The notes under the pieces were generated by a model. It was not told the DNA's origin and made no database searches. It saw only the letters and a list, made by a program, of their open reading frames with translations. This document shows, in pieces, positions 1,913-48,332 of a stretch of 49,064 nucleotides of DNA (position 1 is the first letter of the stretch; the number at the start of each line of letters is the position of its first letter). The position numbers and the translations under genes are program-made. The stretch comes from a virus. The DNA lies in IMG/VR virus record IMGVR_UViG_3300045988_163663, one strand, 5' to 3'.

Positions 1913-2395
1913 ATGAATTTTTTATTTTTAGACTTATCCACAAAATCTACTGGATACGCTATATCAGATGACAAAGGTAAATTAATTACTTATGGATTAA
2001 TTACTGCATCTTCTTCTAATAATGTAAGCCGTATCCAAAAGATACAAAGTGGAATTATTGAATTAGTAAAATAGTATAATATAGAAAAATTAATAGCTGA
2101 AGATGTTCATCCAGAAGCTTATGGCTACTCAGATACAGCTCGTTTACTTATGTGGCTTCAAGGCTCTATAGTCCTTGGTGCTCATAGTGTAAATGATAAT
2201 ATAAATTCCAAAAGCATAGAATTTATGCAAGCTAGTGAATGGCGAAAAAATTTAGGAATTAAAACAGGTCGCGGTATTAAACGTGAAAACCTCAAGCCTC
2301 TTGATATAAAATATGTAAAAGATACATACGGTATTGAGGCCAATGATGATGTCTGCGATGCTATATGTTTATATACTGCATATTTTAAATCATAG
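1913..2395 (+). CDS. RuvC-family Holliday junction resolvase (phage type) with an in-frame TAG at 2072-2074
   Basis: AGGAGG ribosome-binding site and ATG at 1913. N-terminus MNFLFLDLSTKSTGYAI and C-terminus ...DDVCDAICLYTAYFKS are RuvC-like. The ORF is only complete if TAG at 2072 is translated. It ends at tandem TAG-TAG (2393-2398); if these are also read, it continues 6 codons to TGA at 2417-2419. Confidence 0.65.
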
Positions 2396-2505
2396 TAGGA
2401 TGAATTAAATTGGGAATGACGGGCAATTTTATACAATTATATAATTCTTTCTTTCATTTATAATATGAGAAAGAGCGACAAATTCATGTCGGGAGGATTA
2501 TATAA

Positions 2506-4853: not shown

Positions 4854-5090
4854 TTATTTAATTCCAAGCTATTGCTTAAAGGAACTAAATTCTTTATCAA
4901 AGTCTAATCCTTTCTATGCACACATGTTACGTGCTATTTGCTCTATTCCACTAATATTTCCATTCTATGCCATCTATAACAAATTATTCGCCATTGGATT
5001 ATTCTGTTGCTATAAAAATGACATCATTAGCTATTGAGGATTAGACCCACTTCTTATCATTTGAATAATCTACATAGGATTCATCTGCAT
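4854..5090 (-). CDS. Small Gln-rich protein, ~78 aa, with 7 in-frame TAG codons
   Basis: AAGGAG ribosome-binding site 9 nt before ATG at 5090. Translation with TAG=Q gives MQMNPMQIIQMIRSGSNPQQLMMSFLQQQNNPMANNLLQMAQNG... TAA stop at 4854-4856. Confidence 0.35.
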
Positions 5091-5103
5091 AATTCATTAC
5101 TCC

Positions 5104-5535
5104 TTAAAAATTAATCTGTGGTTTAGACTGTTCTTCTACTTTTGGCTATTGTTTTTGCTGCTAAGTCTACTAAGCTATCATATTTAATGCACCTTTAATA
5201 TCATTTAATGTTTCATCAAATTCCTAACGAGTAACAAAATTAGATGAATTAAAAGCTTCAGTAGGAACTTCTTTATACTCATACATATTCATAGATGCTG
5301 TTCCATCTAAATTAATTTGCTTAGTATAAATCCTTTTATTAGCCAAATCAGGAAAGAAAAATACAGAACCATCAAAATCAATAGCAGCAGCTCTTGCCTC
5401 CTCTAATGAAGAAACTGGCCGACCTTTTAACCCAATAAAAGCTGGCTATTGCTACTAACTTGAAGGTATTATTGTATTTGCTCTTTGTGGTTGATAATAA
5501 CTTTGATTATTTCCAAAACCTTGATATAAATTCAT
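5104..5535 (-). CDS. Hypothetical Gln-rich protein, ~143 aa
   Basis: AAGAAAGGA ribosome-binding site then ATG at 5535. In-frame TAG codons fall within Gln runs (SSQQQQP, IAQQTQQQKQQPK). TAA stop at 5104-5106. Confidence 0.4.
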
Positions 5536-5667: not shown

Positions 5668-5698
5668 TGGGAGAACCGCATTGGTTCTCCCATTTTAT
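5668..5698. terminator. Bidirectional rho-independent terminator
   Basis: Hairpin gggagaacc-gcat-tggttctccc flanked by an A9 run and a T-rich run. It directly follows the stop of the holin-like gene (5698). Confidence 0.7.
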
Positions 5699-6105
5699 TA
5701 TTTTGTTTCTGTTGGAGTAATTTTATTTGAATTAACTTCTTTCTCAATTTTAGAAGAAATATATTCATTGAGATCTCCAACAGCAGAATTCAAATATTCA
5801 ATAGCATCTTGACCTAAAATAGCAATTACTTTATTATAAACATCAGTAAATGCTTTTTTCTAAGCTTCACCATCAAATTTTCCTTGCTATTTTAATGAAT
5901 TAACATAAGTCTAATTCATTGCAATAACACAATCAGTAATTGTATTATCAAGCATGTCTAAATATTTTTTAGCTAATTCACTATCTGTTTGTTGCTTTAA
6001 AGCGTCCTTTTTAGATTTAATCCAAGTAACTAAGAATGTCGTTAAAATTCCAAGTAAAGGAATAATACAAATTTGAAATATTTGCGCAACTAATTGAGCA
6101 TCCAT
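5698..6105 (-). CDS. Putative holin (BhlA/UviB-like: N-terminal transmembrane helix plus coiled coil), ~135 aa
   Basis: AAGGAGG ribosome-binding site then ATG at 6105. N-terminus MDAQLVAQIFQICIIPLLGILTTFLVTWIKSKKD is a transmembrane helix followed by a charged coiled coil. Read-through at TAG 5911, 5887 and 5860. TAA stop at 5698. Confidence 0.4.
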
Positions 6106-6118: not shown

Positions 6119-9016
6119 TTAATCTAAATAATCTGTAATATAAACATTTTGCCCAAAAACATAAGGAGAAGAATCTGGATATTTTTCACTTATGACTTCA
6201 ATAGATATATCATTCTTTAAGTTAAATTCATAAGTTACTTCAGCATATCCCCATAATCCTTCTGACGGAGCAACCTAACATTTAGCAGATTCTTTCATCA
6301 ACGTATTATTATAAAAAATTTTACTAGTTATTTCTCCTATTTCCGTTGTAGATTTATTTCTACTAAGTGTATGAATTGTTATTTTATCTCCTTCTTTAGC
6401 TGTAAATTTTGGAATATTTGTTTTTGAGATTCCATCAATAGATATTGAAGTATCTACAAGATTTTTTGTAGTAATTCCAATCCATTTATTCCAAACTAAA
6501 TTATTGTTTAAATATTGAGTATCTAAATACCAACTAGAATAAGCAGTTTTTTTACTAATTTCTTGCTAAGGATTCTATTGTATTGAAATAATAGAATCCT
6601 GGCTGTTACCTGAAACAGATATTAAATCCCAATTATTTTGAATATAAAGTCCCCAATAACTGCTAGTTAATGTAGGATTATAAAAATTAATAAGAATTAC
6701 TTCTCCACTGTCAGAATTAATTGTTAAATCAGGCAAATTAGCCCCAGCATTATCTCCAAAATTAATTATTAACTATGGAGTGCTACTACCTGCATTTTTT
6801 ATTGCTTCTTGATTTAATTTAGTTCCATTTAATATTTGTTTGATAATAAATTCTAATCCATCATTAACATGATCTACATAATATGTTTTTAAAATATTGT
6901 AATTAAAAATATAATCATTATTACCATTGCCCTCAGAACCTTCATAAACAATATTATTTGATAAATGTTCTACAGCAGTTATATTAATAATTTTTTTAGC
7001 TAATGGGATTCCAGGCAAACCAGTTAAAGTACCAATTTTTTCCCAATTATCAAATAAAAACTCCTAATCTTCTAATGATTGGACTGGATCTTTTTTATAC
7101 TAAAAAATATGTCCACGTGTAGAATCACTTAAATTATCTGTAATATTAATAAATAAATCATTTTTAGAAAGAATAGGACCAATATAACTCTCTTTATTAC
7201 CTATTACTTTTTCAATATTATTATTAATTGTATCTATAGAAACAGTTAATCCAGAATTTTTAGGAGTAAGGATATGAATAGGCAAAGGAGTTTCTAAATC
7301 GATTTGTTCCATATTTTTACTTATAGGTTTTATATTAGATACTTTATAAGTCTATTCATTTTTAACATTTATAGTTTTTATTGATATATCAGGATATTTA
7401 GGAATGGAAAAATTAAAAATTTCCTAATAAGTACCAATATTATCTTCTTCTAAAATACTACTTTCAACTACAATCTAATTTTTAATATAACTATTATCTT
7501 TATCTTTAATAAAAGAATCAACTAATTCTGTTTTAGCTAATGGAGCCGGTGCTGTAATAGCCCCTAAATAAATGCCAGTAATCTAAGAAGAAGTTATCTC
7601 ATATAAGCTATAAATTTTCCCAGTTGGCTCATTTATATAGAAATCAGCTTTATAGCCATTATTAGTTATATCATAAAAATGATCTCCTAATGTAGCATAT
7701 TCAGCTAATATTGATAAACAATAATTAGCTATACTACTATTTTCAAAATAATATACAGAACTAATGTCATCTTTTTTATTATTATTTATTAACTTTAATA
7801 AAATATTAAATAAAGAATATATTATTTGATCAACCTAAACCAAAGATCTAGGATACATATCATTAAATAAATAAAATAAATTCTATTGGCTACTTGGATT
7901 ATATTCTGAATCTATCCAGTACCATTCATATTCTAACTCATTTTTAATTTGCTATAATTTAAAATTATCAACTAAATAAGTATATAATTGCTAAGATAAT
8001 TTAGTTATTTTTAAATTATTTTGAGGATTAAATAAAACTCTTTCATCAGGCTAAGCATATATTGCATTTAAATTATTATTGAAAAAATGTTTATTATCAA
8101 TAATATTCCCATTTTCATTATATATTACTTTATCTTCTTTTAGGATATGTAATAAATAATACGAAATTCGTGATAGTATAGAAACCTAATTTTTCCGAAT
8201 TGTATATTTATAATCATAATTTTGATATCCATAAATTTTATAATTACCCATATTATGAAAATAAGATAATGGTCCTAATCCAAATAAAGAACCAGAAAAA
8301 AATGTTGGAGCTTTAGGCAAATCAAAAGTTAATTGAGGCCTAGTTAATGTTGCTGTCTTAATATTTCCATTTTTATCAAAATAAGTTCCTTCAGTTTTAA
8401 AATAAACATTTGGATCTTCCTAAGAGCCAACTATATTTTTATATACTTCTTCAATACGCTATCCACGTTGTAAATAAAATTTAATTTTAGGAGTATCAGG
8501 ATTGGTTAAATCTAAAGTAACATAAGGATCTCCATCTTCAATATCTATAGTCTAATGAAATACTTGAATACGAGGAGTAACGCCAGTTACGCAAGCAATT
8601 AAACGATATCCAAAACCAAAACATTCTTCACTTTCTAAATCAGATACTTCATGAAGAGATTCTCCATATTCTTCTTTATTATCTTCTTCTAAATTTAAGA
8701 AAATATAAATATTATTATCATTCTAAGGAAAATCTGGAGAAACTGTTAAATTTCTATCTACATAGATTTTCTACCACAATGAATTAGTATATGATTTTCC
8801 GCTATCTTTTAAATCTATCTAAAGATTAGTATTATAGTTGGAGGTTTCTTCATTCATATAAGATGGATCACCATAATTAATAAAAACATAATCTCCAACA
8901 TTCACAGGAGAAGTCCATCTTGCTTTTAAATCTCCAACCATGTCAATAGCACGATTGGCAAATATTCGTGTTATTTTAAAGTCTTGCCCTTTTTGTCCAC
9001 CATAAAAGCTATACAT
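6119..9016 (-). CDS. Tail fibre / receptor-binding-like protein, ~965 aa
   Basis: ATG at 9016 with an AAGGGGGAG ribosome-binding site. Track fragments 8819-9016, 7100-7312 and 6773-7018 share one frame and every fragment end is TAG. True stop is TAA at 6119-6121. Composition is Asn/Ser/Thr-rich and beta-rich. Confidence 0.5.
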
Positions 9017-9019
9017 TTA

Positions 9020-9721
9020 TTACTCTCCCCCTTTATATGTTTCATAAGTAAAGTCTATAATTATATTATATAAATCTACAATAGTTGGATCAGGTATATA
9101 TACTCCTGCTTTACCTTTTAAATAAATTCCTAAACCGCTTTTATACTAAGTTATATAATTTTGATGAGCATTATTATATTCAGTCCAATATTCTGAACCA
9201 GCTTCAGTGCGATCAGGAGCCAAACCTAATGTTTTTTCTAAATCATTAATTTTCTATAAAAATGTATCTCTTGCTACTTTCATTATTCCAGTTCCAGTAG
9301 CCTATAACTATTGACTCAATTCTTTATTTATAATATAATTCTAAGGACGTTGAAATCTTAAATAATTAATTACAATATCATCATTAAGTTCATAAATACC
9401 AGTACGTCCAACCATAATCCATTCCCCAGTATCTTGCGTAGTTGCTTTATTAAAAGTGAATTTAGTACCAGGGGGTGCCTAAATGCCTATTTTTTTTACA
9501 TTATTGAAGCCTTTTAAAATATTAGCCCCAAAAATATCTATTTTTTTATTTTCATAATCTGTTTCATCATTTGTAGTAGTTTCAGTAGAATCATTTAAAT
9601 TATTCTAATATACAGCACTATATACTAATTCAGATAAATCTCCCTATTTAGTAGAAACTAATCCACCAGAACCACCATAGTCCTCTAAATTATAAACAAT
9701 TTGTTTAAATTGAATTCCCAT
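9020..9721 (-). CDS. Tail-associated protein, ~233 aa
   Basis: AGGAGG ribosome-binding site and ATG at 9721, immediately after the TAA of the upstream gene. Several in-frame TAGs. Tandem TAA-TAA stop at 9017-9022. Confidence 0.45.
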
Positions 9722-9732
9722 TATTTACCTCC

Positions 9733-12700
9733 TTATACTCTTGTTAAAGCTTCATTTGTTGTAATCGACATATTTCCATTATAAGTTAAAGGAAGAGTAT
9801 ATTGAGTTATAACAAATTCCCCTTGTATATTACTTTTTCTATCATTTATATAGATTAAATTATTAGGTTCTAAATAATATCTTGGCGCACAGTTAATAGT
9901 AACAGTTAAATTATAAATTAAATACTAATATAACATTTCTCTTATATAATCAAATGCCGTACTTCCTGTTCCGCTAGAACTAAATAATTTCATTTGCCCC
10001 GGTTTTAAAGCACAATAAGCCTAACCTTTTAATGTATAATCTTCTATCTTTTGAATTAAATCTGCTTCCCCAGTATTTTCAAAAAATATGATATCAGGCA
10101 CTTCTAATTTATATAAAAGACTCATATTAGTTTTAGTCAATGCTTTAGTACGCCGGCCTATTTTATTAACTGAATATCTAGATACTAACTAATCTACATC
10201 AATAAAATCTAACCAATATGTTATTAAGCTAGGATCAAGATAAATAGCAGGATTCCATCCAATCCAAGTATCAGGTATGATTTCTTCATTTTGATTTTCT
10301 TCAGAAGAATTTTTTGATTCAATCTAATCAATTTGATTCCGCCATTCTTCATGCCAAGTTTCATTCTAAGGATTAAATATTTGTTTACGCCACAAGTATT
10401 CACCATCTATTTTAGCTAATAATTCATCATCATAGTCTCCTTTTTGAGAACCATTTTCATTATTTAATAAAGCTTGTCTAAATAATTCTTCACGCCATTC
10501 ATTGCAAGGAGTACCAATTAAAGTAAAATAAAAATTATCTTCATAATCAAAAGGTGGTTCTTCAGGAGTATATGTAATAATTTTAATTTTATTATTATCA
10601 TTAATAGTAGAAAAATCAAGAATGTTAGAATTATAAGCTTTAGTAATTTCTTCAATAATTTCATTTAATGAATAATTACCATCATCACGTAAAATAAAAA
10701 TTTTCTTTATTATATCTTCCTAATCACCTAAAATTTTTAACTAATTTTTTTTACCATCTACTGGATCTAAAAATGGTAATAATAAATTACTTCCTCCTGA
10801 TGTATTTCCATTTGATGTATTGTTTTTATTGTTATTCTCTTCATTGGGCTTTAACGTAAAACCTGGATCTAAAACATCTAAGGGCATAATTCCATAATTT
10901 GGATCTCTAGGAGTAGGACCAGGTATATTATTATCTTCTGAATTGCCAGGTTTATTTGGTTTAGATGGATCATCTTTAGGAATTTCTTCTATATTTTTAT
11001 AACTATAAATTAATTCAATATCTGAAGTTAAATCATCTTTATTTGTTTTATAGTATTCTAATAATTTTTTAATTAAATCGTTATGTTCTTCTTCAGTAAT
11101 AACAATTTCATCATTCTTATTTTTTATTGCCGGATAATTATTAGGAAATACATAATTATATTCCGTTTTCTTTTTAGATTCATTATAACTAATTAATTTA
11201 TAACTAGCAACAATAGTATTATTTATGGAAATTAAATTATTAGAATCAATAAAATTAAAATCATAATCCTTATTTTCTTCATCAAAATTTATATCTTTAA
11301 TAATCTTAATATAATAATTAATTTTAATTGTATTTAAAAAATTTTCTATGTTTCTTAATGAAAGTTCTTCGGTTAATTCACAAATCTAAATCCACTAACC
11401 TTCACTATCATAATAACCTAAAATATTTTTATTATCTATATTTTTTATTATAGTTAAATAATATTCTTTAGATTCATTAATCGTTGTATTATTATTATTA
11501 TTATCAGACTTATCATTAGAAGAATTATTATTTTTATTTGCATTATTTTCTTGGTCTGCTGGTAACATAAAATCAGGATCTAATACTGTGGAACCTGGAT
11601 TTGGTACCATAAAACCTGGATCTAACTCTTTTGTATTAGATATTAGCATAATACCATAATTTTCTGAATCTCCAGTTCCTTGGCCTTTACGCCACCAAGA
11701 GGTAGGAATACCAAAACCCGGATCTAATGTATTATCATCTTTATAGCTATCATTTTTATTATTATTATTTTTATTAGAAGAATTATTATTACTTGGCCAA
11801 CTATCAGTAGCATCTTTTTTAGGATAAACACCAAGAGCTAAATGAGTAAAGTCAATAATATCAGTTAAATCTTCAAGATATTGAAATCCTATAATTTCTC
11901 CATCTAATAAAGTAATTTTATAATATCTTATCTAATTTAAAAATATTATTTTATAATATAAAATAAACTAATCACCAGTGTAAAAAGAATAATTCTTTAA
12001 AATATTTTCAATTATATCTTCTTTAATGTTAGATTCAATTACTTCATCCACCATTTCTTCATGATTAACAGAATAAATAATTTCTAAAGCTTTTTTATCA
12101 GGTGTCTAATTATAATTACTTTTTTTATACTCAAATAAATAAAAAGCATGGTCACCATTACCTCGAACTACATCCCACATATATTGATTAGCTAAATCAA
12201 TTTGAGGTTTTTCATCTATGGCTAAATGATACTATATAGTTTTAGTAACTCCATTACTATTAGTTTTATCGCCCCATACAATAAAATCATTTTTTATATT
12301 TTCATATTTAGGACTATTATAATAAGATAATGCATCTTTAGCATTTGCAAAAGTATAATAATATTTACTATCTGAAAAAGCTTTTATATAATAAGTATCA
12401 TTTATTTCTGTAATAGGAGTATAATAATAGTTTAAATAATTCTTTTTCTACTAAAATACAAAATGACCATCTAAATCATAAAAATATTCATAATTTCCTA
12501 AAGATTCAATAATTTTATCAAGGACAGAAGTTACTGTGTCTCCCGCAGAAAATACTAATTCTCCTGGATAAGTAAAATCTGTTTCTTGATATCCTACGTC
12601 TTGTCCATAAATAAATTTGTGCTATAAAAAATTTTCATCTTCAGGAGCGTTTTCACTAATTACAAAACTTTTATAATCTTTAGAAAACCATATAGGATTT

Positions 12701-13332
12701 TGGCCCATATATTTTGTACTAAGTTTAGCTGTTATATCTACGTCATTAATTATAACATTCTATTCTGGTTCTTTACCAAAATGTGTTACACATTCTTTAA
12801 TAATCGTAAATATAGGCACTTGCTCAATTGTAATATCTCCATTTTCATCTTCATATTGTGTTTCATGAAAGGTAACTGCTGAAGATAATGTACCTCCGCA
12901 AGTACCATCAAGCATACACATTTTATCTTTACCTGAGATAGAAATATTTGCTGAAGAAGCTGTAGTAGAAGAAGTAGCTTGATTAATTACAAATGTTCCA
13001 AGAGGAAACCAAATAATATCTCCATAGTTTTTATAATCTGCAAATGGATTTTCAAGCCCTACCTCTACTTTTACTTTTTTATTAATTGAAATAATATTTT
13101 CAATATTATTAATGTCATTCTCATTTTCTATACCGCTAATTGTTAGACTAATCGTGCGGCGCAAGGCGGCAGACCCATTAACTGTAATAGAGCCTGCCGT
13201 TGCTATACCCTATACCTCTCGTATAGGTTTTTCATCAACAAAAGATAAAATGGTAAGTTTGATATAATGTTTTTTTATACGCATTTCATCTAATGCAGTT
13301 AAAAACTCACTATCTTTTAGATATTCTCTCAT
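9733..13332 (-). CDS. Giant tail/baseplate protein, ~1199 aa
   Basis: ATG at 13332 with an AGGAGA ribosome-binding site, overlapping the upstream TGA (ATGA). Every codon of this frame from 9736 to 12760 was checked. There is no TAA/TGA, about 17 TAGs, and a TAA stop at 9733-9735. Track ORFs 12760-13164 and 11395-11649 are fragments of it. Confidence 0.55.
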
Positions 13333-16300
13333 TCCGTTTTCTCCTATGATTCATCTTTTTCTTTCTGCTTACCTTTTTTAACTTCTAAAGACGAAACAGA
13401 TTTATAATTAATTATTGCATAAGTAGGTCTAACAAATTCTACTTTAACAATCTCATCTTTCAAAGGATTTAAAACTAATTTATTAGTAGGTCCAATACGT
13501 ACATGAGTGCCAGGAGAACTAATATGATAATTACCAGTAGTTGCATCAAAATCATAGTCTCTATAAAAAACTAAATCTGTATTAGCATCTGCTTCAATTT
13601 CAATACTATCAATACCAGTAAAATTATATATAATTAATTGATCTGAACCATTCATCCAAGCGTCAGTCTATTTATTTAAAGCTAATCCAGATAAAGGTCT
13701 ATAATTTTCTAATAACTATGTACCAATTATTAATAATTCTTCGATGGATTCTGTGGCATCTTTAACTTTATCTAAAAATTCATTTATACCATTATATAAT
13801 AAATCAAAAGTAGATTCAAGTTTTTGATCACTATAATTATTTAAAATAGAAGTATGTACTTTTTCTTTTATTATATCCATTAAATTTAATGTGGAATATA
13901 ATCCATAATTGTATTTTTCATTAACTATATAAGTATCATCATTTCTAAAGAACTAATGGTTATCAAGAATATCTTGAGTATCAGTAAATACTCCACCAAG
14001 CTATCCCCATTGTGCAAATTCACGTTTAACAACAGTCACCATTTCTAAGAAATCTTCTTCCTCTAAATCAACTATATAATTAATTAAAATAGGGCGAGTA
14101 AATTTTAAATACATACTATCAATAATGGCATCATCCAAATGATAAATACGACTGGGCATCATAGAAATTTCTTTACCATTTATTATCATAGTAATAATAT
14201 TAGTCTAATTTTTTTCATATTCCTATAAAAGCTATTCACATCTTAATAATTCAACTGCATTAGTTAACTGACCTATCATAGTTGAACTAGTTTTATTTTT
14301 TAAATATTCTATTTTATTTTTAAGATTTAGTTTAGGATACTATTCTACCCAAATCGCTTTTATTCTTCTTACTCGATATTTTCTATCTTCACTTATTTCT
14401 TGTTCTTCTTGAAGTTTTATTGCGTTACAAATGTTATCATAAGTAAGATTAAATTTATTATTATCAACTATAGATAATTTATTATTAGTAATTTCCTGTG
14501 CATATTTTCCATTAAATGTTCGAGCTACTTGCCCAATAACTGTTTTAGTTTTTGTACTAGCATTCTAAATTGCTAATTTAGAATTATTAGACAAAGTAGT
14601 TAATGGATTTATCTAATATAAAATAATATTTTCTGGGGTACAATCAGCCACTTCATAAGCTGTTGAGTTAAAATCATAAATCATACGATATAAAGAAGCT
14701 TGAGGAGTCCAAGTAACATTAGTTAAAGTAACTATATGATTTCCTTCAGTTGGCGACTTAAATAATTTATAACCACCATCATTTAAAAATTCTTCTACCC
14801 AATGTCTATATATACGTTCCATATATATATTATCATTGGTTGGATTAGTATTAAATGTAGAAGCATTTTGAATATTGTATTGTCTTATATTATAATCATT
14901 GTTATATGGATTCTATAAATCACGCTCAAAAGTTTTAATATATTTATCTTTTGAAATAACTATATCTCCATACCAACTATGATAATAACCACCTTTAGCA
15001 TCATTACGCATTAAAAAAGAAGAATCAATATCACTTAATAAAGAAATTTTTGCACCCAACTAAAATTCTGCATAATGTGCCAATCCATTACGCAAAATAA
15101 TCGGATATTTAGAATTCAAGCTATCTTGCTTTTGGAATAAAGTAGTATGCTTATAACTATTCATTTTGCAATCAAAATCTAAACGAACTTGAATACCATT
15201 ATTATAAATATAACTATACTAAAAATTAGACCAATGTGCTGGTGATGAATCAATATCATCACTTTCATATTTAGGGGCACTTCTTAATCCTACAGCATTC
15301 TATTTCTATAAAGCATATTTATATTTAACTCCGCTTTCAACTGTAAAATCTTCATATAATAAAGTTAATTTATCATCATAATTAGTTTCATTATACCAAT
15401 CAAATTGAGCTATATCTTTCCATTGAGTATAATTATCAGTTTCACAAGCTCTTGATAAAATAAAAGTACCATCAAGAGATTGATATTTTTCTACATCTAT
15501 TTCACGTTCTACTTTTTCACCAGTAATAGTAGTAATGGTTATTTTTTCTTTTACTTCATAAGGATTATTTTTAATATAAATTTCTAAGCTGCCATTTTCA
15601 TCAGCTCGCAAATTATGACTAAAATCTTCAATTGCTTTTATTCTAGTAATTTTACTTAATACATGAGTTTCTATATTATCTTCATTAATATTACCAGTTT
15701 GATAAATTATATCTCCCGCATTATACCCATCTGCGTCATCATAATAACCTTTAATAAATTTAGGAGCCTATCCTTTTAATCCAAAATATTCCTTATACAT
15801 CTAAAAAGCAACTTGATTTGCTCCGGCTATTTTATTTAATAATATGGTAGATTCAGTATTATCTTTTACTGTGAATACTAAAGTCTATAACTATTTTAAA
15901 TAATTTTCAGTAATAGTAAAATTATAATACTCAGAAGATTTTTGATAATTATTCATTGTAATAACATCAAAAATCAATGAATACATTTTTGTTCCAGTCT
16001 AATCTAATTGTCTATTAAAACTATAGGAGACTAAAGCACTATATTTATCTTTCCCTCCACCATTATACTATAGCCAATCACTCTATAAATATGGCTCAGA
16101 ACTTGGAGGATTCTTTGAATTAAAACTGCCTTCATATAATCTAAAACGATATTTATCCAATGGTTCAGTATCGCTTTGATATCCTCCCTCAAATTTAGGG
16201 AAACGGCTAACTTCTATATTATTACTTGATATTAAAATAAATCCTACGTCTAATGAAGAAGTATCTTTATTATTTAATATTTCTACAATTGGATCATCAA

Positions 16301-16757
16301 TTGCTTTAGTAATTATAACATTGGACCATTCTGAAAAAGCTTCAGCTACAGTCTAAGATTTTTTCCATTTAAAAAATGAAATTTTATCTGTATAATCTAT
16401 TTTCCCATAGCCAAAACGTATCTAAATTTTATAATAAGTATTAGAAACCCAACCTATTGTATCTCCTAATTTAATATCTGAACTATTTACAGTAACTGTA
16501 TATATTCCATTATCAGTAGAGGTAGTTGGCTTTTCCATATAAATAATACCATCCCAATATTTATCAGTATTAATTATACTTTTATTATTGGATTGCTATA
16601 CAAATTTAATTGAAATATTCTTTACATCCTCATAATTTAATGATTTAGGTAAAGAAAAATTTATATTAATAGAGGCCGCAGTTGCTAAAAATGCTGGTAT
16701 TGAACTATCTACAATAGGCGGATATACTCTATTTATATTTATTGTGGACGCTGCCAT
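13329..16757 (-). CDS. Giant tail protein, ~1142 aa
   Basis: AGGAGG ribosome-binding site then ATG at 16757. Four track fragments (15306-15611, 14613-14822, 14001-14189, 13344-13655) share the frame and all end in TAG. TGA stop at 13329-13331. Confidence 0.5.
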
Positions 16758-16837
16758 TTATTGACCTCCTTTAACTCTTATTTCTATTTATTTTTAAAAA
16801 TTATATATTGTAAACATACTATTTTGGTCCAAATAAA

Positions 16838-16868
16838 AAAAAAGAATGATGGATAAAAATCCATCATT
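16838..16868 (-). terminator. Rho-independent terminator (minus-strand orientation)
   Basis: Hairpin gaatgatgga-taaaaa-tccatcattc, followed on the minus strand by a U9 run. It overlaps the TGA stop (16864-16866) of the upstream gene. Confidence 0.65.
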
Positions 16869-19800
16869 CTTCAATATACCAATCACGTAATTTTATATTT
16901 TTAGGAGCAATATAATCAGATAACTATTGTTTTAAATCAGCATTTGTAGCTATCTCATTTAGCAATTTAGCTACTGTTAAAATATTAGTCACACTTTCTT
17001 CTTTTAACTAAATAGAACCATCAACATTAAAGCATAAAGCATCTCCTGCTAATTTTACAACTCCATCAGAACGCAAAATATTAGTAGGAATACCATCCAT
17101 ATCATATTGATATAATCCTGAAACAAATCCTGAACTATCTGATTCTTCTATTGGTGTTTCTTCAGCTTCTAAACTCAATGTCTAAATTTCTAAATCTTTT
17201 CCCGGATCTTCGATAGGCAAAGTATATTTTCTACGCTTGTTTTCCCATAAAGAACCTACATAAGTTTTGCCTTCATCTCGTGCCCAAGGTCTACCATGAG
17301 AAAATCCTGGGTCAAGAGGTTTTTCAGATTCTACAGTATCTTCATCAAGCACAGGTATATTAGTACCATCATTATCTTCATCTGTTATAATAGTAATATC
17401 TTTATTATTAAGCATTACTATTGGATAAAATAAACTGCCCTTATTATCTGGTAAAAAAATCTATAACGCACCCATAGGAACAGTCTTTACTTGGTCAGTA
17501 GATTTAGCAAAATAAGCACCTGGATAATTTTCTTGTGGTCTAAGGTATTGCTATTTTACATTATCAGAATTAGTAGAATTAACTATAATTATATAATCAG
17601 TAAGAGACACTGGATTAGTAACCTATAATAAATCAATAAATTTTTTACCATCATATTTATACATAAAAGAAATCTATTTATTTATTAAAGAAGGAGTTCC
17701 CTTCTCATTATAAGTAATTTTAGAAGGTATATTAATATTACCAATGCTATTAACTACAAAATTAGTACTAACCATTATAGGCTTATAATAATATAAAGTC
17801 TAATTTGTAATAGCTTTATTTTCTAACCCTATAGTTACTTTAAATTTTATAAAATACTAACCCTTACAATCTTCAACTGGATTTGAAATTTTAAATACAT
17901 TTTTTTCTTTATTTACTTTTTCACAATCTAAATTAATAGGGTCTGCTTCAACAGTTATTTTATATTTATCTGTGGTGTTACCAACGGCATCCTAATAAGC
18001 AGAACCATTTATTATTTTATTACCATTATATCTTACTTCTGGCATGAGATAAATTGGTTCATAATCAGACCCACTTTTTTTATTAATAGGTTTAGTGTCA
18101 AGTTCACTGCCATCAGCATTGCAATCTTTAATAATTAATTGATAATCTAAACCACTAACTGTTGAGTCACCTGGTTTAATAAAAACAATACTTTTATTAA
18201 ACTTAAATTCTTTATCAGCTAATGTTATTACTTTTAATGATAAGGTATTATTAGTATAAGTATCTACATATTTAGGTTTAATATAATAATGTAAAGCATT
18301 ATTAGTTTTATCTATCCAAAGCTTTGAAAGCATTGAATTAGTAATTTTAGTAGTAGGGTATTCTAAAAGTTCTCCTCCATCGGGTGAATACCAAGTAACA
18401 CTTTTAACTCCTATATTTTCTTTATCTACGCTAATAGTTGGAGTAATAATTATTTCTTTATTAGCCTAATCTAAAGAAATACTACCATTATCATCATACT
18501 AAAAAGTATCTGTTCCACTAAATACTACTCGTACAGGCGATTCTTGTTTATAAGTAATTAATTTATATTCGCAAGGTACATAATCACCAGTATCTAATTT
18601 ACTAACACTATAAAATATTACATTACCATATTCTAAAAACTAACTTACATCAATCTAACTAACTCCAGTAGATAAAGGTAAATATGATCCATCCATCAAA
18701 TCAACATACCAATCAGCTTCATTAATAGTTTCTAATGAATCTACAATAGATAATTTAACTTCATTTTCACTAATAAATTGCGGAATTATAGTAAATCGTT
18801 CATTATAATATTTAACTACTCTAACATCTTTATATAAAGTAACATTAGAATTATATACTACCACTAATTTATATCGCATCTATTGATATACATCTTTGCC
18901 CGAAATAGTTAGTTCATTAAATCTTACATTAGAACTATCATTAATACATTCCCACCCAGGGCCGCCTATCTAATCATATTTTTCACTACCAGATAGAACT
19001 GCCGGATTCTATTTATACCAATAACATTTGCAAGTTTTTTCTTCTAATATATTCTTATTAGCATAATAAAAAACACCTATTAATTTTATTTTATCGGTAT
19101 CTTGAATTAATGATAAACCCTATGGCGCACTAATACCTACATAATATAAATCTTTAGTAGAATCTTGGACATCAACAAAACTAAGTTTTATATTTTTAAC
19201 AAAAAGATTAGGCTCTTTATCATAAACCGCAGTTATCTCACCTTTGCCGTTAAAAACAGTATCATATCTTAAAAATCTTTCTTGAAAAAATGTAATTTTT
19301 TTTATGCCAATTAAATTAATTCCAGTTAAATCATAAATTACATACTATGGTGAAAATACTTCATAATCGTAAATACTACCAGAGAAATTTATAATATCTA
19401 ATCTACGACTAAAAACAATACCTGTATCTTTTTCTACAAAATCAATTTTTAATCCATAATTACCAGCCATCATTGTTCCATAAAACTATGTTCTAAAATC
19501 GGCCTAAATCATAATACGAGGATAAGTAGTTAATAAACTAGTAAAAATTACATCTTCAGTGAGATTATCATTTTCATAAATTACCTATTCATAATATTTA
19601 CTTTTATCTTCTTCCTCTTCTATCGGTTCTTTACTATCTTCAGCCTAAGTATCAGTTGCAGTACCTTCTTCTGTATCATTTGATGAATTATTTTTATCAT
19701 CTTTTGGAGTTTCTTCTTCTTCCTTTTTAGGTTCTGGTGCATAAGCTAAGATACCATATTCATTACCATTACTATATATTTCACTTATTTCGACTACTTG

Positions 19801-20160
19801 CTAAGATAAATCACTATATTCTTCTTCTGTATAAGAAGTAGCAGATGCTTTGCCTTCAATAGTTTTTTTTTGAGTAAAATCACCGCCTGGTACTTTTACA
19901 TATACATTAGTTCCTTTAGAATATACATAAGTTAATGTAGTTGGGGCATAAGCACGAAATTTCCCTTTTTGATATTCAACAAAATATTCTCCAGTACTGG
20001 CATCGTTTAGACTTATAACTTCAGCAATTATAGTTTTATCAAATGATAATTCAGCATCACGTGCCCGTGCTATATAATCTATAGTCTCTAATAAGGCATC
20101 TGTTATTTCTTTTGGCTTTTTTATAGTAGCTAAATATTCTTCTTTTCTATTATAAGCCAT
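16864..20160 (-). CDS. Large distal tail protein (Dit/Tal-like position, directly after the tape measure), ~1098 aa
   Basis: AAAGGAG ribosome-binding site then ATG at 20160. Frame checked codon by codon from 16921 to 19801: no TAA/TGA, many TAGs. Track ORFs 19801-20160, 18655-18879, 17992-18333 and 17182-17415 are its fragments. TGA stop at 16864-16866. Confidence 0.55.
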
Positions 20161-20182: not shown

Positions 20183-20213
20183 AAATGAGGAGGAAATTAA
20201 TCCTCCTCATTTA
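20183..20213. other. Perfect 12-bp hairpin between tape measure and next gene
   Basis: aaatgaggagga-ttaatt-tcctcctcattt. It overlaps the tape-measure stop (TGA 20207-20209) and precedes the ribosome-binding site of the next gene. Confidence 0.5.
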
Positions 20214-23200
20214 GATTTATTTGCACTTATATATTGAGCCGCATTATTACTAAGATTAGACAATGCTTCTTCAATTTCATAATGATCAGTAACTCCTGGG
20301 AAGTCTGCTTGAATAGTAACTTCTTGCTTAATTGGCTAAGTTTCATAAACAGGTGGAGTAGTTTTATCAATCAAATTACCTAATTTTATCTATCCAAAAT
20401 TAATCATTGATTGTACTTGTTTATCAACCCAATCATTCATATTACGAACAATATCAACTGCACGAAGTATATTAGAAGTATCTTTTTGGTTAAGAATTAA
20501 TTCTTTAGGATGGACTTTAATAATTCTACCATTATCAGGTCCGAAACCTTGTCCTTTAGCCCAATTGCCTGTATAGGCACCAGAAGCTGCACCATTTCCT
20601 AAAACTTTATCTAACCATTCTGCATTTTTATTAGTTGTAATTTCTTTCTTTTCTTCTTCAGACCAATAATCAGTAGAAGAACCATTCTTTAAAATCTATG
20701 AACCTTCCTATTCCATATCAGATAATTTTAAATTACGGATATCTTTCAAAGTTTTGATGTCATCAGTAGTCCAAGTACGGCCACTTTCATCTGTATAAGT
20801 ACCACCATTTTTACTTAAAGAAATTATAGCAGCACTATAATCAACACCAATATCATAAGTTAATCCGCCGCTACCACTACTACCAAAGTTACCATCAATA
20901 TACTATTCATTTTTAGCTAATTCTTCATCAGTTCGCTTAGAATATTTCTATTCCCAATCAAGAACCATTCCAATAGACTAAGAAATATAGCCCATTAATA
21001 CATTAACAAGTTCTTCAATTTCATCACATAATTTTTGAATATGTTCTTCAAGACTATCAAGAGTGCCGCCCATATCAGAACCGAAAGTTTCCCAAGATGT
21101 ACCAGCAACGTTCATTGCTGCTTCAACAACTTTTTGCCAATCTTTATAATTGGTTTGTAATTCACTAATTGTAGTATTAGAATTATTAACAAATAACATA
21201 TAAGCATCATTATAATCATACAAATCAGTCATTTGGCCGTAGAGAGTATCATGGAATGTTAATCCACTATTTACAACACCTTTATTTAATTCATCAAGTA
21301 AATATCTTTGTCTTTCAACATAATACTCTTGCAATGATAATAGCTGATTTGAATAATCCGCAGAGTTTTTATCAAGATCTTGTAAGGCTTCTTTAAAATC
21401 AATTTGATTCTAAATTAACTATTCACTTACATCATTAATATAATCCTTACTTAACTTACCTAATTCATGAACCGCATCTTCATATTTCTATGTGGCGTCT
21501 TCAATTTTTTCTTCATCTGCATCATAAGCATAAGTCCAGTTACCCGCGGCATCACGCACTAAACGCATTGAAGTTTTAGAATTTTGTTGCTCCATAAGAG
21601 CTATTTCAGCAAGTTGTAAGTCATATTTCTTCTATAAATACTCAAGGTCATATTGGCTCATCTAGACGCCATCGGCCTGGAGATCGTGAATCTCTTGCTA
21701 AATGTCTCTAAGTTTTTGTTTAGCTAAAAGGTCATTAGTATCAGCCAGCTATAAATTTAGCTAACGATTTAATTTATTTAATTCATATAAGCGTTCGGCA
21801 TCATCAAGATATTCTTCATTGATAGTCTTTGCTTTTTCATATTTATCTTGGAAATCTTCAAGAGTTTCAAACGGCGATAACGCATTACTTAATACATTAA
21901 CAGCCATCTCAACACGCATTTCAAATAAATCTTGAGCAGCTTCAAGGGTTTCTTCCCAAGAAGCTAAAAATTCATCAGAAGCTTTTTCAGTTTCTTGTTT
22001 TAATACTTCAACTTGATTCTCCCAGAATTTTACAGAAGATGTGTCACCATCAGCCTAACGATCAGCAAGGGCAGCCTATGCTTCTTTAGTTGCTTTAGCC
22101 AAACCATCCATTTGCGCTTTTAAAGATTTCATTTTACCTAACATTGTTTCTACTTTAGTAGCACCAATCTAAGTTTTTAATCCCATATCAAGCATTGAAC
22201 GACCAGACAAATCAATAATATTATTAAGATGGTCAAGCATTGATGTATAAGTATCAAGACGTTCTATCTACTTATCAATTTCATCAAGAGCCAAGTCTAG
22301 AACATTCTAAACCAAATCTTCAATATCATTACGTAAATCTAGAATAGCCTCATTAACGTCAATCAAATCACTTTGGTATTCAAGTATTTGTTCATCGAAC
22401 ATCTACTCATAACCTGGGTGTCTAGCTTTTGCAGCATTTAACTCATCAATACCCTAACGTAATGTAGCACCTTTATCAAAAAGCTATAACATCTCTTGTT
22501 CTTGATAAGCAAATCCTTCAAGCATTGCTTCAATAGTTTGTTTATTACCATGAGCCTATTTAAGAAGTTTTTCTTGATAATAATTAAGACGTTTAATCTA
22601 AAAATCAATCTACTTAACTTTCCAATCAATTTGCTTTGTAATAGCTTCTAGTTCAAGTTCAGCAGCTTCTTTCTCTTTTTGAGCAATAAGAGCGACATTT
22701 TCATCAATACGCTCTTGAATACCCATAGGGCCGTCAAGACCATCTTTAATTTTAGTAAACCATTCATTTAGGTCTTCTTCGCTCATACCATCTTCAAGAT
22801 TTTTTTGATATTGTGCCCAAACTTTGCCCCATAATTCAGAAGCATTAGCAATTTCACCATCATCAGTAAGTTTTATTTCAAACTCTGGATGGTCTTTATT
22901 AAATTCTTCTACTTTAAGTTTTAATAATTTTTTCCAAGATTTAATCTAATCTTCAAGAATGTCCTGCTCTTCTTCTAATAATTTTATTTCTTCTTGAATA
23001 TATTTAGCTGAGTCTTCTGGATTAGCTCCCTCACGTAAAGCTTCAAGACGATCACGTTTCTTTTCTTTAGTTTTTAACAATTCATCTTGAATTTCTTTAC
23101 CAATATCATTAGCGGATTTAGATTCAGAACCTCCTCCTCCACCGCCACCTTTATTATTGCCATTTTCGGTAGTTAAATATTTCCCACCATCACCTTTAGT

Positions 23201-26200
23201 GACTAAAGAACCTTCAGAAGCTACACTTATAGTATCTCCGATAGTTCTTTTAAGTTCAGCAATTCTAGCTGGATCAGCATTAGTTGGGTCTTTCATAATT
23301 TCTGCTATTTCCTAAAAAGCATTAAATAAAATCTATAATTGAGAAGTATTAAAATGGATACCAACTTGTCCCATAGCATTAATATAGCCGCACATCTCTT
23401 CAATAGTTCCGCCAAGAGGAGCAAGAGCAGCTAATGCCTAAGAAGCATCTGCAGTAATTCTACCATCAACTACAAATCCATCATTCTAAGATAAAAGATT
23501 AGTTATTTCATTTAATTTTGCCTAAGCAGCAGTCTATAAAGCTGAAAAATCTAATTTCCCAGCAGATTCATTTATTTGCTAAACTAACTAATCATCTAAT
23601 TTACCAAATAATTCAAGGAATTGTCCGGCTAAAGCAGCTTCATCATCATTACCCCATAAAAATTTTTCTACTAAAGGCTAGTTAACTTCATAATCTGATT
23701 CAGATAAATTAAATAAATCTTTAACACTTTGTTTTAAATCATTTTCAACTTCAGTGGTGTCTTCGCCTTCTTCACGGAGTTCTTTATACTATGTTTTTAA
23801 TTCACTTATACCTTTAACAGCTTCTCTAATTTCATTATCTCGTAAAGTATTATAGAATTTTTCTGTCGCTTTTTCTACAGCATTAGTGTCTTCACCAGCT
23901 AATTCTAATTCACGATTATATTGATTTAAAGCCTCAGTATTTCCTTCAATATCTTGATTATTAGTAGCCCAAGTGTGTAATCCATTTTGACTAGCTTCAT
24001 CTGCATAATCAAAACCAGTCATTTCACTCATTTCTTTTACTGAATTAGCATTAGTATAAGCATTAGTTCTTAATAAATCAGCATTGTATGCTCCATCAAT
24101 ATTAGCCATATAAGCATCTATTATTCCTTGAATAATATTTGCTTGATCAGAAGAACTTAAATTTTTATAATAATCTAAATCATAGTTACCTACTTCATCA
24201 GTACCAACTAATTTCGCAATTTCTTCAGGGCTACCAAAAATATCTAACATTTGTTGCATATAACGGCCTCGAACATCTGTAAAATTCCCAGCTGCCATAG
24301 CTGCTAAATTATTATCATAATCCTATCCATTAATGCGTATTCTAGTGCCTAAATTAAACTAATCATTCCAATTATCCTAAGCAGTTTCGGCAACATTATG
24401 CTATTCTTCCGCTCTGTCTATTCCGGCCTAAATTAAAGCATTTTTATCTTTAGTATCAAAATCCTTAACTTTTATATATTCATCTGGACCAGTCTAAACA
24501 TAATAATCTTCAGAATTTAATCCAGCTGCTTTAAGTCCTTTAGTAATTTCATCATACTTTTCTTTAGTAATAGAACTGCCAACATCTTGACCCATTAAAT
24601 CAAAAATTTCGATTAATAAATCTCTAAAAGTAGTAAAATCTTCTATAGGCAATTTATTAGCAGTTTCTTGCATCATATCATAGAAGCCTTTCCAAGCTCC
24701 TTCATCATCTGATACAACAATGCCTAAATCTTCTAGGGTATCAATAAATTCTTCCCAAGTTCCAGAAGACCAATCAAAATCAGCTATTTTATTTAACTAA
24801 TCAAAAGTTAAATCTTTTCCTACTGTATTAATTGCTTCGGTAAACGCAACAACCCCATTTTTTCCTGCCACTTTAAATATGTCTTCTGCAATCTAAGAAA
24901 TACGAGATTTTAATGAAACACTATATCCTTCAAATTCATCAATTGCTTTTGATATATCATCTTCATCTTCAAGCCCTAATATATATTTAAATGCTTTATT
25001 ATTACTTATATCTTCAATATTAGCAATCTAATGCGATGCTTCTTCTACTATAGCTTCGCCTAATTCTTTACCGCTAGTTACGCCTAATTCTTTCATCATA
25101 TTAGACATATATGATTTTACGGTTTCTTGCTATTCAGGTTTTAATAAATTAAAATCTTCGCCAAATAAACTCTATCCAATTAAGTTCTGTAAATCTTCAT
25201 CTTCAAAACCTTTTTCTATATCTATTTTTAACTATTTAAGCTAATCTTGAGTAAAATTGCTTAAATCGCCATCATTACCAAAAAATTCTAAAATACCTTG
25301 GCCTATAGTTCCTTGATTACTCATACCAGTCTAGAATTTTTGAGCCATAGCATAAGTAGTCTAAAGTTCTTCTCCCATAGCCTACATAGTAGCTATTGTA
25401 GTAGCAACTTCTGAGAATAATATAGTTTTTCCATTCTCTAATTGGAATGATCTATTCTAACCTTCACCAATTACAGAATTTTTCTAATTTAATTTATATT
25501 CGCTATCATTTTTATCAATTTTAGCCGCTGCTAAATAAGCATCCCATAAATTACGTAAAGCTTGATCTCCTTTACCAGCTCCACCAGCATTTTCATCGTG
25601 AGTTCCTATTTCTCGGTCCTTATCAGTTCCGTCATCCCAACTAATAGTTCCATTGTCATTATAAAAGCTATCTTTAATAGCTTCAATATTAGCATCTACC
25701 AAAGCCGTAGTTATTTTAGCATCTTCAGTAGACATAGTATCTAATCCAAGAGCCTATTGAACTGAAGCTTCTTTCGTAGCCTATAATGTAGCATCAGTAT
25801 TATTTTGTATTACTTTTGAAACATTAGATATAGCAGCTTGAACATCATCAGTACTAAATTTATCTGCTAAGGACTAAGCATAAAGATTTAATAATTCTTC
25901 ATCAGTTTTTTCATTACTTCCATTAGTTACAGAATAATTATTATCAATAAGTAATTGTTTAATTGCTTCAGTTAAATCTTGGCCTGTTCTATTATTTAAT
26001 TCATTCTAATTATTCAAAAGTAAATTAAGAGTATCTGCATAAGAGGCACCAGTTCCATCATTTTTTAATAAGGTACCTTTAGTAGTAACTGAAGAAGAAG
26101 CTGTTAAAAAATTACTAGTTAAATTCTACTTAGCTTTTTCAATATTTAAGTCTTCTAAATTACTTTGTTCATTAGCTAAAGCATATTGCTATTGAAGAAT

Positions 26201-29638: not shown

Positions 29639-29685
29639 AAAATAGCTCCTTTCTCTCATTATAAATTTCTATATACAAAGAAAAA

Positions 29686-40537: not shown

Positions 40538-40550
40538 TATAAATCCTCCT

Positions 40551-47550: not shown

Positions 47551-47598
47551 TTCGTGTTAAGATTTTGTTAAGAAAAATTTTGACAAAGAACAAAAAAT

Positions 47599-47627
47599 TT
47601 TGTAAAATAAATTATAAAAAATTTATG
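47599..47627 (+). promoter_or_regulatory. Promoter upstream of the AbrB-like gene
   Basis: TTGACA-17 bp-TAAAAT. Confidence 0.4.
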
Positions 47628-48331: not shown

Positions 48332-48332
48332 A

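What the first reader, a model, noticed from the sequence alone, without database searches (positions are those of the whole stretch)
4854..5535. TAG clusters with CAA/CAG in Gln runs, suggesting TAG encodes Gln
In the small proteins at 4854-5090 and 5104-5535, TAG codons lie directly next to CAA/CAG codons in poly-Gln-like stretches (CCT CAA TAG; TTA TAG CAA CAG; TCA AGT TAG TAG CAA TAG CCA; GCT TAG TAG ACT TAG CAG CAA AAA CAA TAG). The tape measure has a similar run (GTT TAG CAA CAA TAG ACT TAG). This matches the TAG-to-Gln reassignment described for other recoded phages (code-15-like). The window alone cannot prove it.
Basis: partly seen in the sequence, partly recalled or inferred. Interest (0 to 1): 0.7.

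Follow-up and report, generated by a model that had tools for sequence, protein, structure and literature searches.

The report
Phage reads TAG stop as glutamine
This gut-phage fragment uses the TAG stop codon as an ordinary glutamine codon; comparison with standard-code relatives shows this clearly, but it is one more example of an already described recoding (genetic code 15).

Summary
Every quoted codon string is present on the minus strand, in two Shine-Dalgarno-preceded genes (4854-5090 and 5104-5535) just downstream of a holin. TAG lies next to CAA/CAG about twice as often as chance across the window. Adjacency alone is weak evidence, because AGC, ATC and GAC sit next to Gln codons as often or more.

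The interpretation, TAG = Gln, holds on independent evidence.
- The window is a 30% GC phage structural module with 318 in-frame TAGs in 39 genes. All 39 end in TAA or TGA.
- Against four cultured standard-code phages, Gln is the commonest partner of TAG sites (51 of 212).
- Against sister phages with no in-frame TAG, 43 of 94 TAG sites are Gln (background 4.6%, p=4e-32). True Gln sites are conserved at 53%. Gln beats the next amino acid by about 78 log-likelihood units.
- Six of 11 terminase TAG sites are invariant Gln.
- CAA, two mutations from TAG, is the main partner, so mutational proximity does not explain the pattern.

I found no suppressor tRNA in the window or in about 138 kb of a roughly 188 kb sister genome. 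How TAG is decoded is therefore inferred, not shown. TAG-to-Gln phages are well known, and a related group (phAss-1) is published. This is a new member of a known kind, of low interest.

The parts
4854..5090 (-). 78-aa Gln-rich small protein of unknown function with 7 in-frame TAG
   Evidence: Translation and codons. Shine-Dalgarno plus ATG, ending in TAA. Relatives have CAA/CAG or TAG at sites 7, 20, 27 and 42. No Pfam, PHROG or PDB match.
5104..5535 (-). 143-aa small protein (PHROG 21718, unknown function) with 8 in-frame TAG in Gln-rich N- and C-terminal tails
   Evidence: The public protein P0001 is identical, with Q at every TAG position.
5698..6105 (-). Holin with 3 in-frame TAG, immediately upstream of the two small genes
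   Evidence: PHROG 13712 holin, E=1e-26. TAG count.
20207..29659 (-). Tape measure protein, 3150 aa, with 110 in-frame TAG. Includes the run at 27761-27781.
   Evidence: Homology to the tape measure proteins of VRE9_4, E3 and Sundance.
42704..44455 (-). Large terminase with 11 in-frame TAG, 6 of them at positions that are invariant Gln in standard-code relatives
   Evidence: PHROG 2. 44-45% identity to the Enterococcus VRE9_4 and Geobacillus E3 terminases. Site table.
40550..42241 (-). Portal protein with 8 in-frame TAG, 4 at invariant Gln positions
   Evidence: PHROG 2739, E=5e-74..
33096..33830 (-). Virion protein (PHROG 4051) with 9 in-frame TAG, 6 of them Gln in all five standard-code relatives aligned there
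6119..20160 (-). Five tail, baseplate or fibre genes in which TAG makes up 47-62% of all Gln-type codons
36350..40174 (-). Capsid block (major capsid protein at 37017-38153) almost free of TAG (0-1 per gene), with higher GC (0.31-0.41, three of the four genes at 0.36 or above)
   Evidence: The major capsid protein matches PHROG 4088.
1913..2419 (+). RuvC-like Holliday junction resolvase with 3 in-frame TAG, showing that recoding is not confined to late genes
   Evidence: PHROG 827 and Pfam RuvC. The NrdD gene just left of the window has a TAG at a site that is Gln in 65 of 84 homologues.
47113..48999 (+). TAG-free plus-strand genes at the right end, where a long TAG-poor presumed early region begins
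   Evidence: In sister contigs this region continues for more than 30 kb with almost no in-frame TAG and with TAA/TGA stops.

Best explanation
The window is the structural and lysis module, plus a few flanking genes, of a roughly 188 kb low-GC tailed phage from gut metagenomes. In this phage UAG is a sense codon for glutamine (genetic code 15), and only UAA and UGA terminate.

TAG supplies about 44% of all Gln-type codons here: 318 TAG against 350 CAA and 60 CAG. It occurs wherever Gln occurs, so it piles up in Gln-rich, low-complexity tails.

Shown: TAG sites behave like Gln sites in every comparison with standard-code homologues. TAG is not needed as a terminator. TAG and CAA/CAG replace one another between sister phages.

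Inferred: during infection, UAG is decoded by a CUA-anticodon tRNA charged with Gln. This would be phage-encoded in the roughly 27% of the genome I could not read, or non-canonical. Decoding may be helped by lowering release factor 1 activity.

The presumed early region to the right of the window is TAG-poor, while replication, tail and lysis genes are TAG-rich. This fits the published model in which recoded genes can be expressed only after the code switch is established. The most highly expressed capsid genes avoid TAG, probably because suppression is less efficient than normal decoding.
For: 1. Under the standard code only 42% of the window lies in ORFs of 100 aa or more. With TAG read as sense, 39 contiguous genes cover about 92% of it, including a 3150-aa tape measure protein with 110 TAGs.

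2. Cultured standard-code homologues: Q is the top partner of TAG sites (51 of 212). Gln has the best likelihood, by 58 log units.

3. The clade contains sister phages with 0 in-frame TAG in about 5400 aligned codons. In single such genomes, 44-60% of TAG sites are Q, against 50-56% conservation of real Q sites. Background Q is 4.1-4.6% and p ranges from 1e-30 to 2e-34. The likelihood gap to the next residue is about 34-89 log units depending on the genome (78 in L020).

4. The codon partner is mainly CAA (two substitutions from TAG). The CAA:CAG ratio at TAG sites matches the genome-wide ratio. The one-step neighbours AAG, GAG, TTG, TCG, TGG and TAT/TAC are rare.

5. Gln content is 2.7% without TAG and 4.8% with it. 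Standard-code relatives have 4.6%.

6. All 39 genes end in TAA (34) or TGA (5). Standard-code relatives do use TAG as a terminator.

7. Invariant-Q sites in the terminase, the portal and NrdD.

8. More distant relatives carry tRNA(CUA) genes. Two of these have an unpaired position 1:72, G73, and G2-C71/G3-C70, as tRNA-Gln does. The authors of phAss-1 report a Gln isotype call for its suppressor (PMC10607447).

9. Public gene calls already hold this exact protein with Q at each TAG.
Against: No tRNA of any kind was found by ARAGORN or Rfam in the window. None was found in about 138 kb (73%) of a roughly 188 kb sister genome tiled from closely related contigs. A motif scan found no release factor or GlnRS. 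The decoding machinery is therefore not demonstrated.

About half of TAG sites align to non-Gln residues (E, K, N, A and others). This is what variable Gln sites do too, but it means no single site proves the case.

A few sites conserved among the cultured phages are not Gln (terminase site 56 aligns to Pro in three cultured phages, next to an indel), although terminase site 474, which is L/L/F/I there, is Gln in all six closer standard-code relatives.

There is no protein-level evidence.
Confidence: 0.93

Rival explanations
1. TAG is reassigned, but to another amino acid: Lys, Glu, Tyr, Trp, Leu, Ser or pyrrolysine.
For: ARAGORN labels every CUA-anticodon tRNA of relatives as 'tRNA-Pyl'. One phAss-1 suppressor and the L096 suppressor have long variable arms like Ser/Leu/Tyr tRNAs. 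K and E are the second and third most frequent partners of TAG sites.
Against: The likelihood for Lys, Glu, Asn and all other residues is about 34-110 log units worse than for Gln in every standard-code comparison. Trp, Tyr, Leu and Phe rank at the bottom. K and E are simply the usual substitutes of Gln, since the profile of real Q sites shows the same pattern. 'Pyl' is only ARAGORN's default name for the CUA anticodon. The relatives' type-I suppressors have ordinary cloverleaves.
Confidence: 0.02
2. TAG is still a stop. The long 'ORFs' are then decayed pseudogenes, assembly errors, or genes expressed by rare read-through.
For: Under table 11 the genes are fragmented. GenBank annotations of the relative phAss-1 show such fragments.
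Against: Conservation continues across TAGs in every essential virion gene. TAG positions are shared or swapped with CAA/CAG among dozens of independent assemblies. A tape measure protein with 110 TAGs could never be made by leaky read-through. The lineage is abundant, with thousands of near-identical proteins in public assemblies.
Confidence: 0.01
3. TAG is Gln, but it is decoded without a phage-encoded canonical suppressor tRNA. One possibility is that the phage disables release factor 1 and host near-cognate tRNA-Gln(CUG) reads UAG. Others are a host-encoded suppressor, or a tRNA too unusual to detect.
For: No tRNA at all was found in 73% of a sister genome, even at permissive Rfam thresholds (and those listed above). 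Relatives carry tRNA arrays, including tRNA(CUA), at the two syntenic places that are empty here: downstream of NrdD and upstream of the nucleotidyltransferase gene. Borges et al. detected TAG suppressors in only 40% of TAG-recoded phage genomes (10.1101/2021.08.26.457843). From my own knowledge, RF1-deficient E. coli reads UAG largely as Gln through near-cognate decoding.
Against: About 50 kb of the genome remains unread and could hold one tRNA gene. No candidate RF1 inhibitor was identified. With TAG at 2.1% of codons, near-cognate decoding looks too inefficient for a protein with 110 TAGs.
Confidence: 0.25

Closest known systems
Genetic code 15 (TAG to Gln) phages: crAss-like and Lak phages and the 'gemstone' clades (Borges et al., bioRxiv 10.1101/2021.08.26.457843; Peters et al. 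2022, PMC9523058; Ivanova et al. 2014, from my own knowledge)
   Same: In-frame TAG in structural, lysis and some replication genes. TAG sites align with Gln. TAA/TGA act as terminators. A TAG-poor early region. Both recoded and standard-code members within one clade.
   Different: The capsid and terminase lineage is different, related to SPbeta, Enterococcus EF1 and Geobacillus E3. No suppressor tRNA or RF2 gene has been found so far. There is no proteomic confirmation for this lineage.
phAss-1 / proposed Phassvirus and its wider monophyletic group (Babkin et al. 2023, PMC10607447; NCBI 'Caudoviricetes code 15 clade')
   Same: Human-gut phages of 136 kb or more. The terminase is homologous (40% identity). 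Both have NrdD/NrdG. Both use TAG as Gln in the terminase, portal and tape measure genes. The group's relatives include Enterococcus phage EF1, which is also among the best cultured matches here.
   Different: Only distantly related. phAss-1 has 36 tRNAs including three tRNA(CUA), two of them next to NrdD. This lineage has none at that position. The genome here is larger, at about 188 kb.
Agate clade of Borges et al.
   Same: Large genome. Standard-code and recoded members are closely related. Structural and lysis modules are recoded.
   Different: Membership was not tested, because no Agate reference sequence was available to the tools. The comparison rests on the paper's description only.
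Classical amber suppressor supE (tRNA-Gln with CUA anticodon) of E. coli (from my own knowledge)
   Same: Gives UAG the meaning Gln through a tRNA-Gln derivative still recognised by the Gln charging system. The suppressors of relatives L254 and phAss-1 share the 1:72 mismatch, G73 and G2/G3.
   Different: supE is a weak, partial suppressor in a standard-code cell. Here the reassignment is complete at the genome level.

Membership tests
Code-15 (TAG to Gln) recoded phage | Essential conserved genes are interrupted by many in-frame TAGs and become contiguous when TAG is read as sense | tested here: met
   318 in-frame TAGs in 39 genes. ORF coverage is 42% under the standard code, against about 92% gene coverage with TAG as sense.
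Code-15 (TAG to Gln) recoded phage | TAG positions correspond to Gln in standard-code homologues | tested here: met
   Cultured phages: Q at 51 of 212 sites, with the best likelihood. Standard-code sister phages: 44-60% Q, p from 1e-30 to 2e-34. Invariant-Q sites in the terminase, portal and NrdD.
Code-15 (TAG to Gln) recoded phage | TAG is not used as a terminator | tested here: met
   Stops are TAA 34 and TGA 5. In the TAG-free early region of sister contigs, called under the standard code, only about 3 of 44 ORFs end in TAG. One possible exception in the window is at 47872.
Code-15 (TAG to Gln) recoded phage | Phage-encoded suppressor tRNA with anticodon CUA and Gln identity | tested here: inconclusive
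   None in the window. None in about 138 kb of a roughly 188 kb sister genome.
Code-15 (TAG to Gln) recoded phage | Gln found at UAG positions in the proteins themselves | not testable with these tools
   Needs proteomics. This has been done for crAss-like phages only (PMC9523058).
phAss-1-related phage group (Babkin et al. 2023) | Signature proteins (terminase, portal, major capsid) cluster with phAss-1, Enterococcus EF1 and related metagenomic genomes | tested here: inconclusive
   The terminase is 40% identical to phAss-1 and 44% to the EF1/VRE9_4/H1 phages. The structural module is collinear with VRE9_4. No phylogeny was made.
Pyrrolysine decoding of UAG | A pylT-type tRNA with pylS/pylBCD genes, and UAG at positions not explained by a standard amino acid | tested here: not met
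   No tRNA and no pyl genes were seen. TAG columns are explained by Gln. Relatives' CUA tRNAs have normal cloverleaves.

The most novel reading that the evidence does not exclude
This abundant roughly 188 kb gut-phage lineage may have fully reassigned UAG to Gln while carrying no tRNA gene at all. It appears to have lost the tRNA arrays, including tRNA(CUA), that its relatives keep at the syntenic sites. If so, it would have to switch the host's code by a tRNA-independent route. Candidates are inactivation of release factor 1 with near-cognate reading by host tRNA-Gln, a host-encoded suppressor, or a decoder RNA that current tRNA finders cannot recognise.
Probability: 0.25. Interest if true: 0.65.

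Novelty: new member of a known kind. Interest (0 to 1): 0.2.

Why it matters
Practically, any annotation of this sequence with the standard bacterial code will break the terminase, portal, tape measure, tail and lysis genes into fragments. It must be translated with code 15.

Biologically, it adds a well-supported TAG-to-Gln case in a large SPbeta/EF1-like phage lineage of low-GC gut bacteria. Recoded and standard-code members of this lineage are still about 60% identical in protein sequence, which makes it a convenient system for studying how a code change spreads.

The only open point with wider interest is how UAG is decoded, given that no tRNA was found in three quarters of the genome.

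Tried and rejected
- Pfam gave almost nothing for ten key proteins.
- Megablast of 19 kb against GenBank phages found no match.
- PDB sequence searches with the two small proteins found nothing, so their function stays unknown.
- Adjacency statistics proved non-specific as evidence for the amino acid.
- I walked outwards from the window to look for the suppressor tRNA, using all eight viral-contig scans, the metagenome scan, the genome scan and two protein-search/look-up pairs. This covered about 138 kb and found no tRNA.
- Permissive Rfam searches were also negative.
- A motif scan for release factors and GlnRS was negative, but this is a crude test.
- Assigning the identity of relatives' suppressor tRNAs by overall similarity to other phage tRNAs was uninformative: top hits were Ile, Leu, Gln, Trp and Cys at 59-69%.
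- Host inference failed. The genome-collection hits are phage contigs binned into MAGs labelled Mollicutes, Clostridium and Muribaculaceae, which is not reliable host evidence.
- Public protein hits for the small protein are not independent evidence, because they were themselves translated with TAG as Q.

Full report
**Observation**

The region 4854-5535 holds two small minus-strand genes. Both have a Shine-Dalgarno sequence, an ATG start and a TAA stop. The 78-codon gene (4854-5090) has 7 TAG and 7 CAA/CAG. The 143-codon gene (5104-5535) has 8 TAG and 11 CAA/CAG, concentrated in its N- and C-terminal tails. The tape-measure run is at 27761-27781 on the minus strand.

I shuffled codons within genes to test against chance.
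- Window-wide, TAG has a CAA/CAG neighbour 37 times against 18.4 expected (z=4.5).
- The 143-codon gene is significant alone: p=0.019 for adjacency, and p=0.0008 within 3 codons.
- The 78-codon gene is not (p=0.10).

AGC, ATC and GAC codons are next to Gln codons as often as TAG or more, and TAG-TAG pairs are not enriched. So the clustering is real, but by itself it is weak evidence for what TAG encodes.

**What the window is**

The window has 30% GC. Under the standard code only 42% of it lies in ORFs of 100 aa or more. With TAG read as sense it resolves into about 39 tightly packed genes. The minus-strand operon runs from about 47000 to about 2980 and contains, in order:
- a sigma-factor-like gene;
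- a gene of unknown function (PHROG 3314), in the position of SPbeta-like yonG;
- the large terminase (42704-44455);
- a small homing-endonuclease-like gene;
- the portal gene (40550-42241);
- a capsid block, with the major capsid protein at 37017-38153;
- tail genes, including a 3150-aa tape measure protein with 110 TAGs, and four tail/fibre genes of roughly 1000-1200 aa each;
- a holin (5698-6105);
- the two small genes of the finding, and three more genes of unknown function.

The plus-strand genes at the left end include a dUTPase-like gene (my reading of its sequence) and a RuvC-like resolvase. An anaerobic ribonucleotide reductase gene (my reading of the ORF sequences) lies just outside the window.

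In total there are 318 in-frame TAGs in 15,075 codons, against 350 CAA and 60 CAG. All 39 genes end in TAA (34) or TGA (5).

**Which amino acid: cultured standard-code phages**

I masked every TAG as X. BLAST scores X identically against all residues, so this cannot bias the result. I then aligned the window's proteins to cultured phages whose hosts use the standard code: Geobacillus virus E3, Enterococcus phage VRE9_4, Alicyclobacillus phage KKP_3916 and Brevibacillus phage Sundance.

Of 212 aligned TAG sites, 51 are Q, 25 K and 22 E. I estimated substitution profiles from the same alignments. Gln explains the TAG columns best, with log-likelihood -567.7. Lys is next at -625.5, and Trp, Tyr, Leu and Phe are far worse. 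Terminase sites 67 and 382 are Q in all four phages.

**Which amino acid: sister phages in IMG/VR**

IMG/VR holds 80 loci of sister phages. About a quarter of them have no in-frame TAG at all in some 5400 aligned codons, and they use TAG as a terminator. They are therefore standard-code members of the same clade, at about 60% protein identity.

In single such genomes, with each site counted once, 44-60% of the window's TAG sites are Gln. Genuine CAA/CAG sites are conserved at 50-56%. Background Gln frequency is 4.1-4.6%, and p ranges from 1e-30 to 2e-34. Gln beats the next residue by about 34-89 log-likelihood units depending on the genome, 78 in L020.

Six of 11 terminase TAG sites, and 4 of 8 portal TAG sites, are Q in all six standard-code relatives inspected.

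**Codon-level checks**

- The main partner of TAG is CAA, which is two substitutions away (24.9% over all relatives). The CAA:CAG ratio at TAG sites equals the genomic ratio. The one-step neighbours AAG, GAG, TTG, TCG, TGG, TAT and TAC are rare. Mutational proximity therefore does not explain the pattern.
- Counting TAG as Gln raises the Gln content from 2.7% to 4.8%. Standard-code relatives have 4.6%.
- In the two small proteins, close and distant relatives swap TAG with CAA/CAG at sites 7, 20, 27 and 42.
- In the NrdD gene left of the window, one TAG falls on a site that is Gln in 65 of 84 homologues.

**Distribution of TAG**

- In tail, baseplate, terminase and lysis-region genes, TAG makes up roughly 40-60% of Gln-type codons.
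- TAG is also present in the resolvase, NrdD, a DHH/RecJ-family gene upstream of the lysozyme-like gene (14 TAGs) and DnaB.
- It is nearly absent from the capsid block, which also has higher GC.
- It is nearly absent from the long plus-strand region of small genes to the right of the window.

This matches the published picture, in which a standard-code early region is followed by recoded middle and late genes (10.1101/2021.08.26.457843). The added detail here is that the most abundant virion proteins avoid the recoded codon.

**Decoding machinery**

No tRNA is present in the window by ARAGORN, Rfam gathering thresholds or permissive Rfam thresholds.

I tiled closely related contigs outwards in both directions until every collection scan and protein search was used. 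About 138 kb of a roughly 188 kb genome contains no tRNA at all.

More distant relatives do have tRNA arrays at two syntenic places, downstream of NrdD and upstream of a nucleotidyltransferase gene. Several of these arrays include a CUA-anticodon tRNA (phAss-1, L096, L230, L254, L267). Two of those tRNAs have the unpaired 1:72 position, G73 and G2-C71/G3-C70, which are typical of tRNA-Gln. The phAss-1 authors report a Gln isotype call.

For this lineage the suppressor is therefore inferred, not shown. Borges et al. likewise found TAG suppressors in only 40% of TAG-recoded genomes.

**Comparison with what is known**

- TAG-to-Gln recoding in phages is established bioinformatically, and for crAss-like phages by metaproteomics (PMC9523058).
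- NCBI has a 'Caudoviricetes code 15 clade'.
- A group of gut phages distantly related to this one (phAss-1; terminase 40% identical) has been described with the same recoding (PMC10607447).
- Public protein collections already hold the 143-aa protein of the finding, identical, with Q at each TAG.

**Verdict**

The finding is correct but not new in kind. It is a new, well-supported member of the code-15 phages.

The only part with wider interest is the apparent absence of any tRNA. If that holds in the complete genome, the lineage would be a good case for studying tRNA-independent code switching.

Noticed in passing
window 36350-40174 and 31925-33016: The capsid block and the major tail-type virion protein have clearly higher GC (mostly 0.36-0.41, against 0.25-0.32 elsewhere) and only 0-2 TAGs. 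Neighbouring genes use TAG for about half of their Gln codons. Either highly expressed genes avoid the recoded codon, or this block was exchanged with standard-code relatives.
   Followed up: partly
window 47674-47900 (+): A small AbrB/SpoVT-like ORF in the TAG-free right-hand region reaches an in-frame TAG at 47872-47874. A TAA follows 9 codons later, and then a strong hairpin with a T-run at about 47907-47945. This may be a rare case where TAG is the real stop of an early gene.
   Followed up: no
window 48190-48590: A roughly 400-bp GC-rich (about 50%) non-coding stretch sits in a 30% GC genome. It lies behind two near-consensus sigma-70 promoters (TTGACA-17-TATAAT near 48196-48230, and TTGACA...TACAAT near 48305-48335) and upstream of a 44% GC gene. 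It could be a leader or a non-coding RNA. There is no Rfam match.
   Followed up: partly
loci L014-L030, L076-L079, L082 versus L007-L013 and L031-L075: The clade mixes TAG-recoded and strictly standard-code members at about 60% protein identity. The standard-code members use TAG as a terminator, for example in the portal gene of L020. This is good material for reconstructing how the code change arose.
   Followed up: partly
L200 19057-19128 and L205 16863-16933: A conserved tRNA-like gene (Rfam tRNA, 45 bits) has a 6-nt 'anticodon loop' (GTTAGT and GTATAA). A compensatory change supports the stem. It is neither a normal decoder nor a CUA suppressor. It is absent from the window's own lineage.
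   Followed up: partly
L003 c44443-44533 (phAss-1) and L096 15128-15209: Two CUA-anticodon tRNAs of relatives have long variable arms (the type II shape of Ser/Leu/Tyr tRNAs), unlike tRNA-Gln. In these relatives, not every suppressor need insert Gln.
   Followed up: no
window 30395-31714 (-), 3' end: The gene ends ...GAT TAG TAA, so a TAG sits directly before the TAA stop. The protein either carries a C-terminal Gln or retains the trace of a former TAG terminator.
   Followed up: no
window 42259-42615 (-): A small homing-endonuclease-like gene is inserted between the terminase and the portal genes. It is 51% identical to the gene at the same position in Enterococcus phage VRE9_4. Sister contigs also carry GIY-YIG genes splitting the DNA polymerase, gyrase B and DnaB genes.
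   Followed up: no
L189-L193 (genome collection): Near-identical phage contigs are deposited inside MAGs labelled 'uncultured Mollicutes bacterium', 'Clostridium sp.' and 'Muribaculaceae'. These are probably binning artefacts and not host evidence.
   Followed up: no
L274-L279, left of the window by about 25-35 kb: The only recognisable endolysin of the lineage (CHAP plus Amidase_2, 430 aa, 2 TAGs) lies among replication genes. It is far from the holin at window 5698-6105.
   Followed up: no
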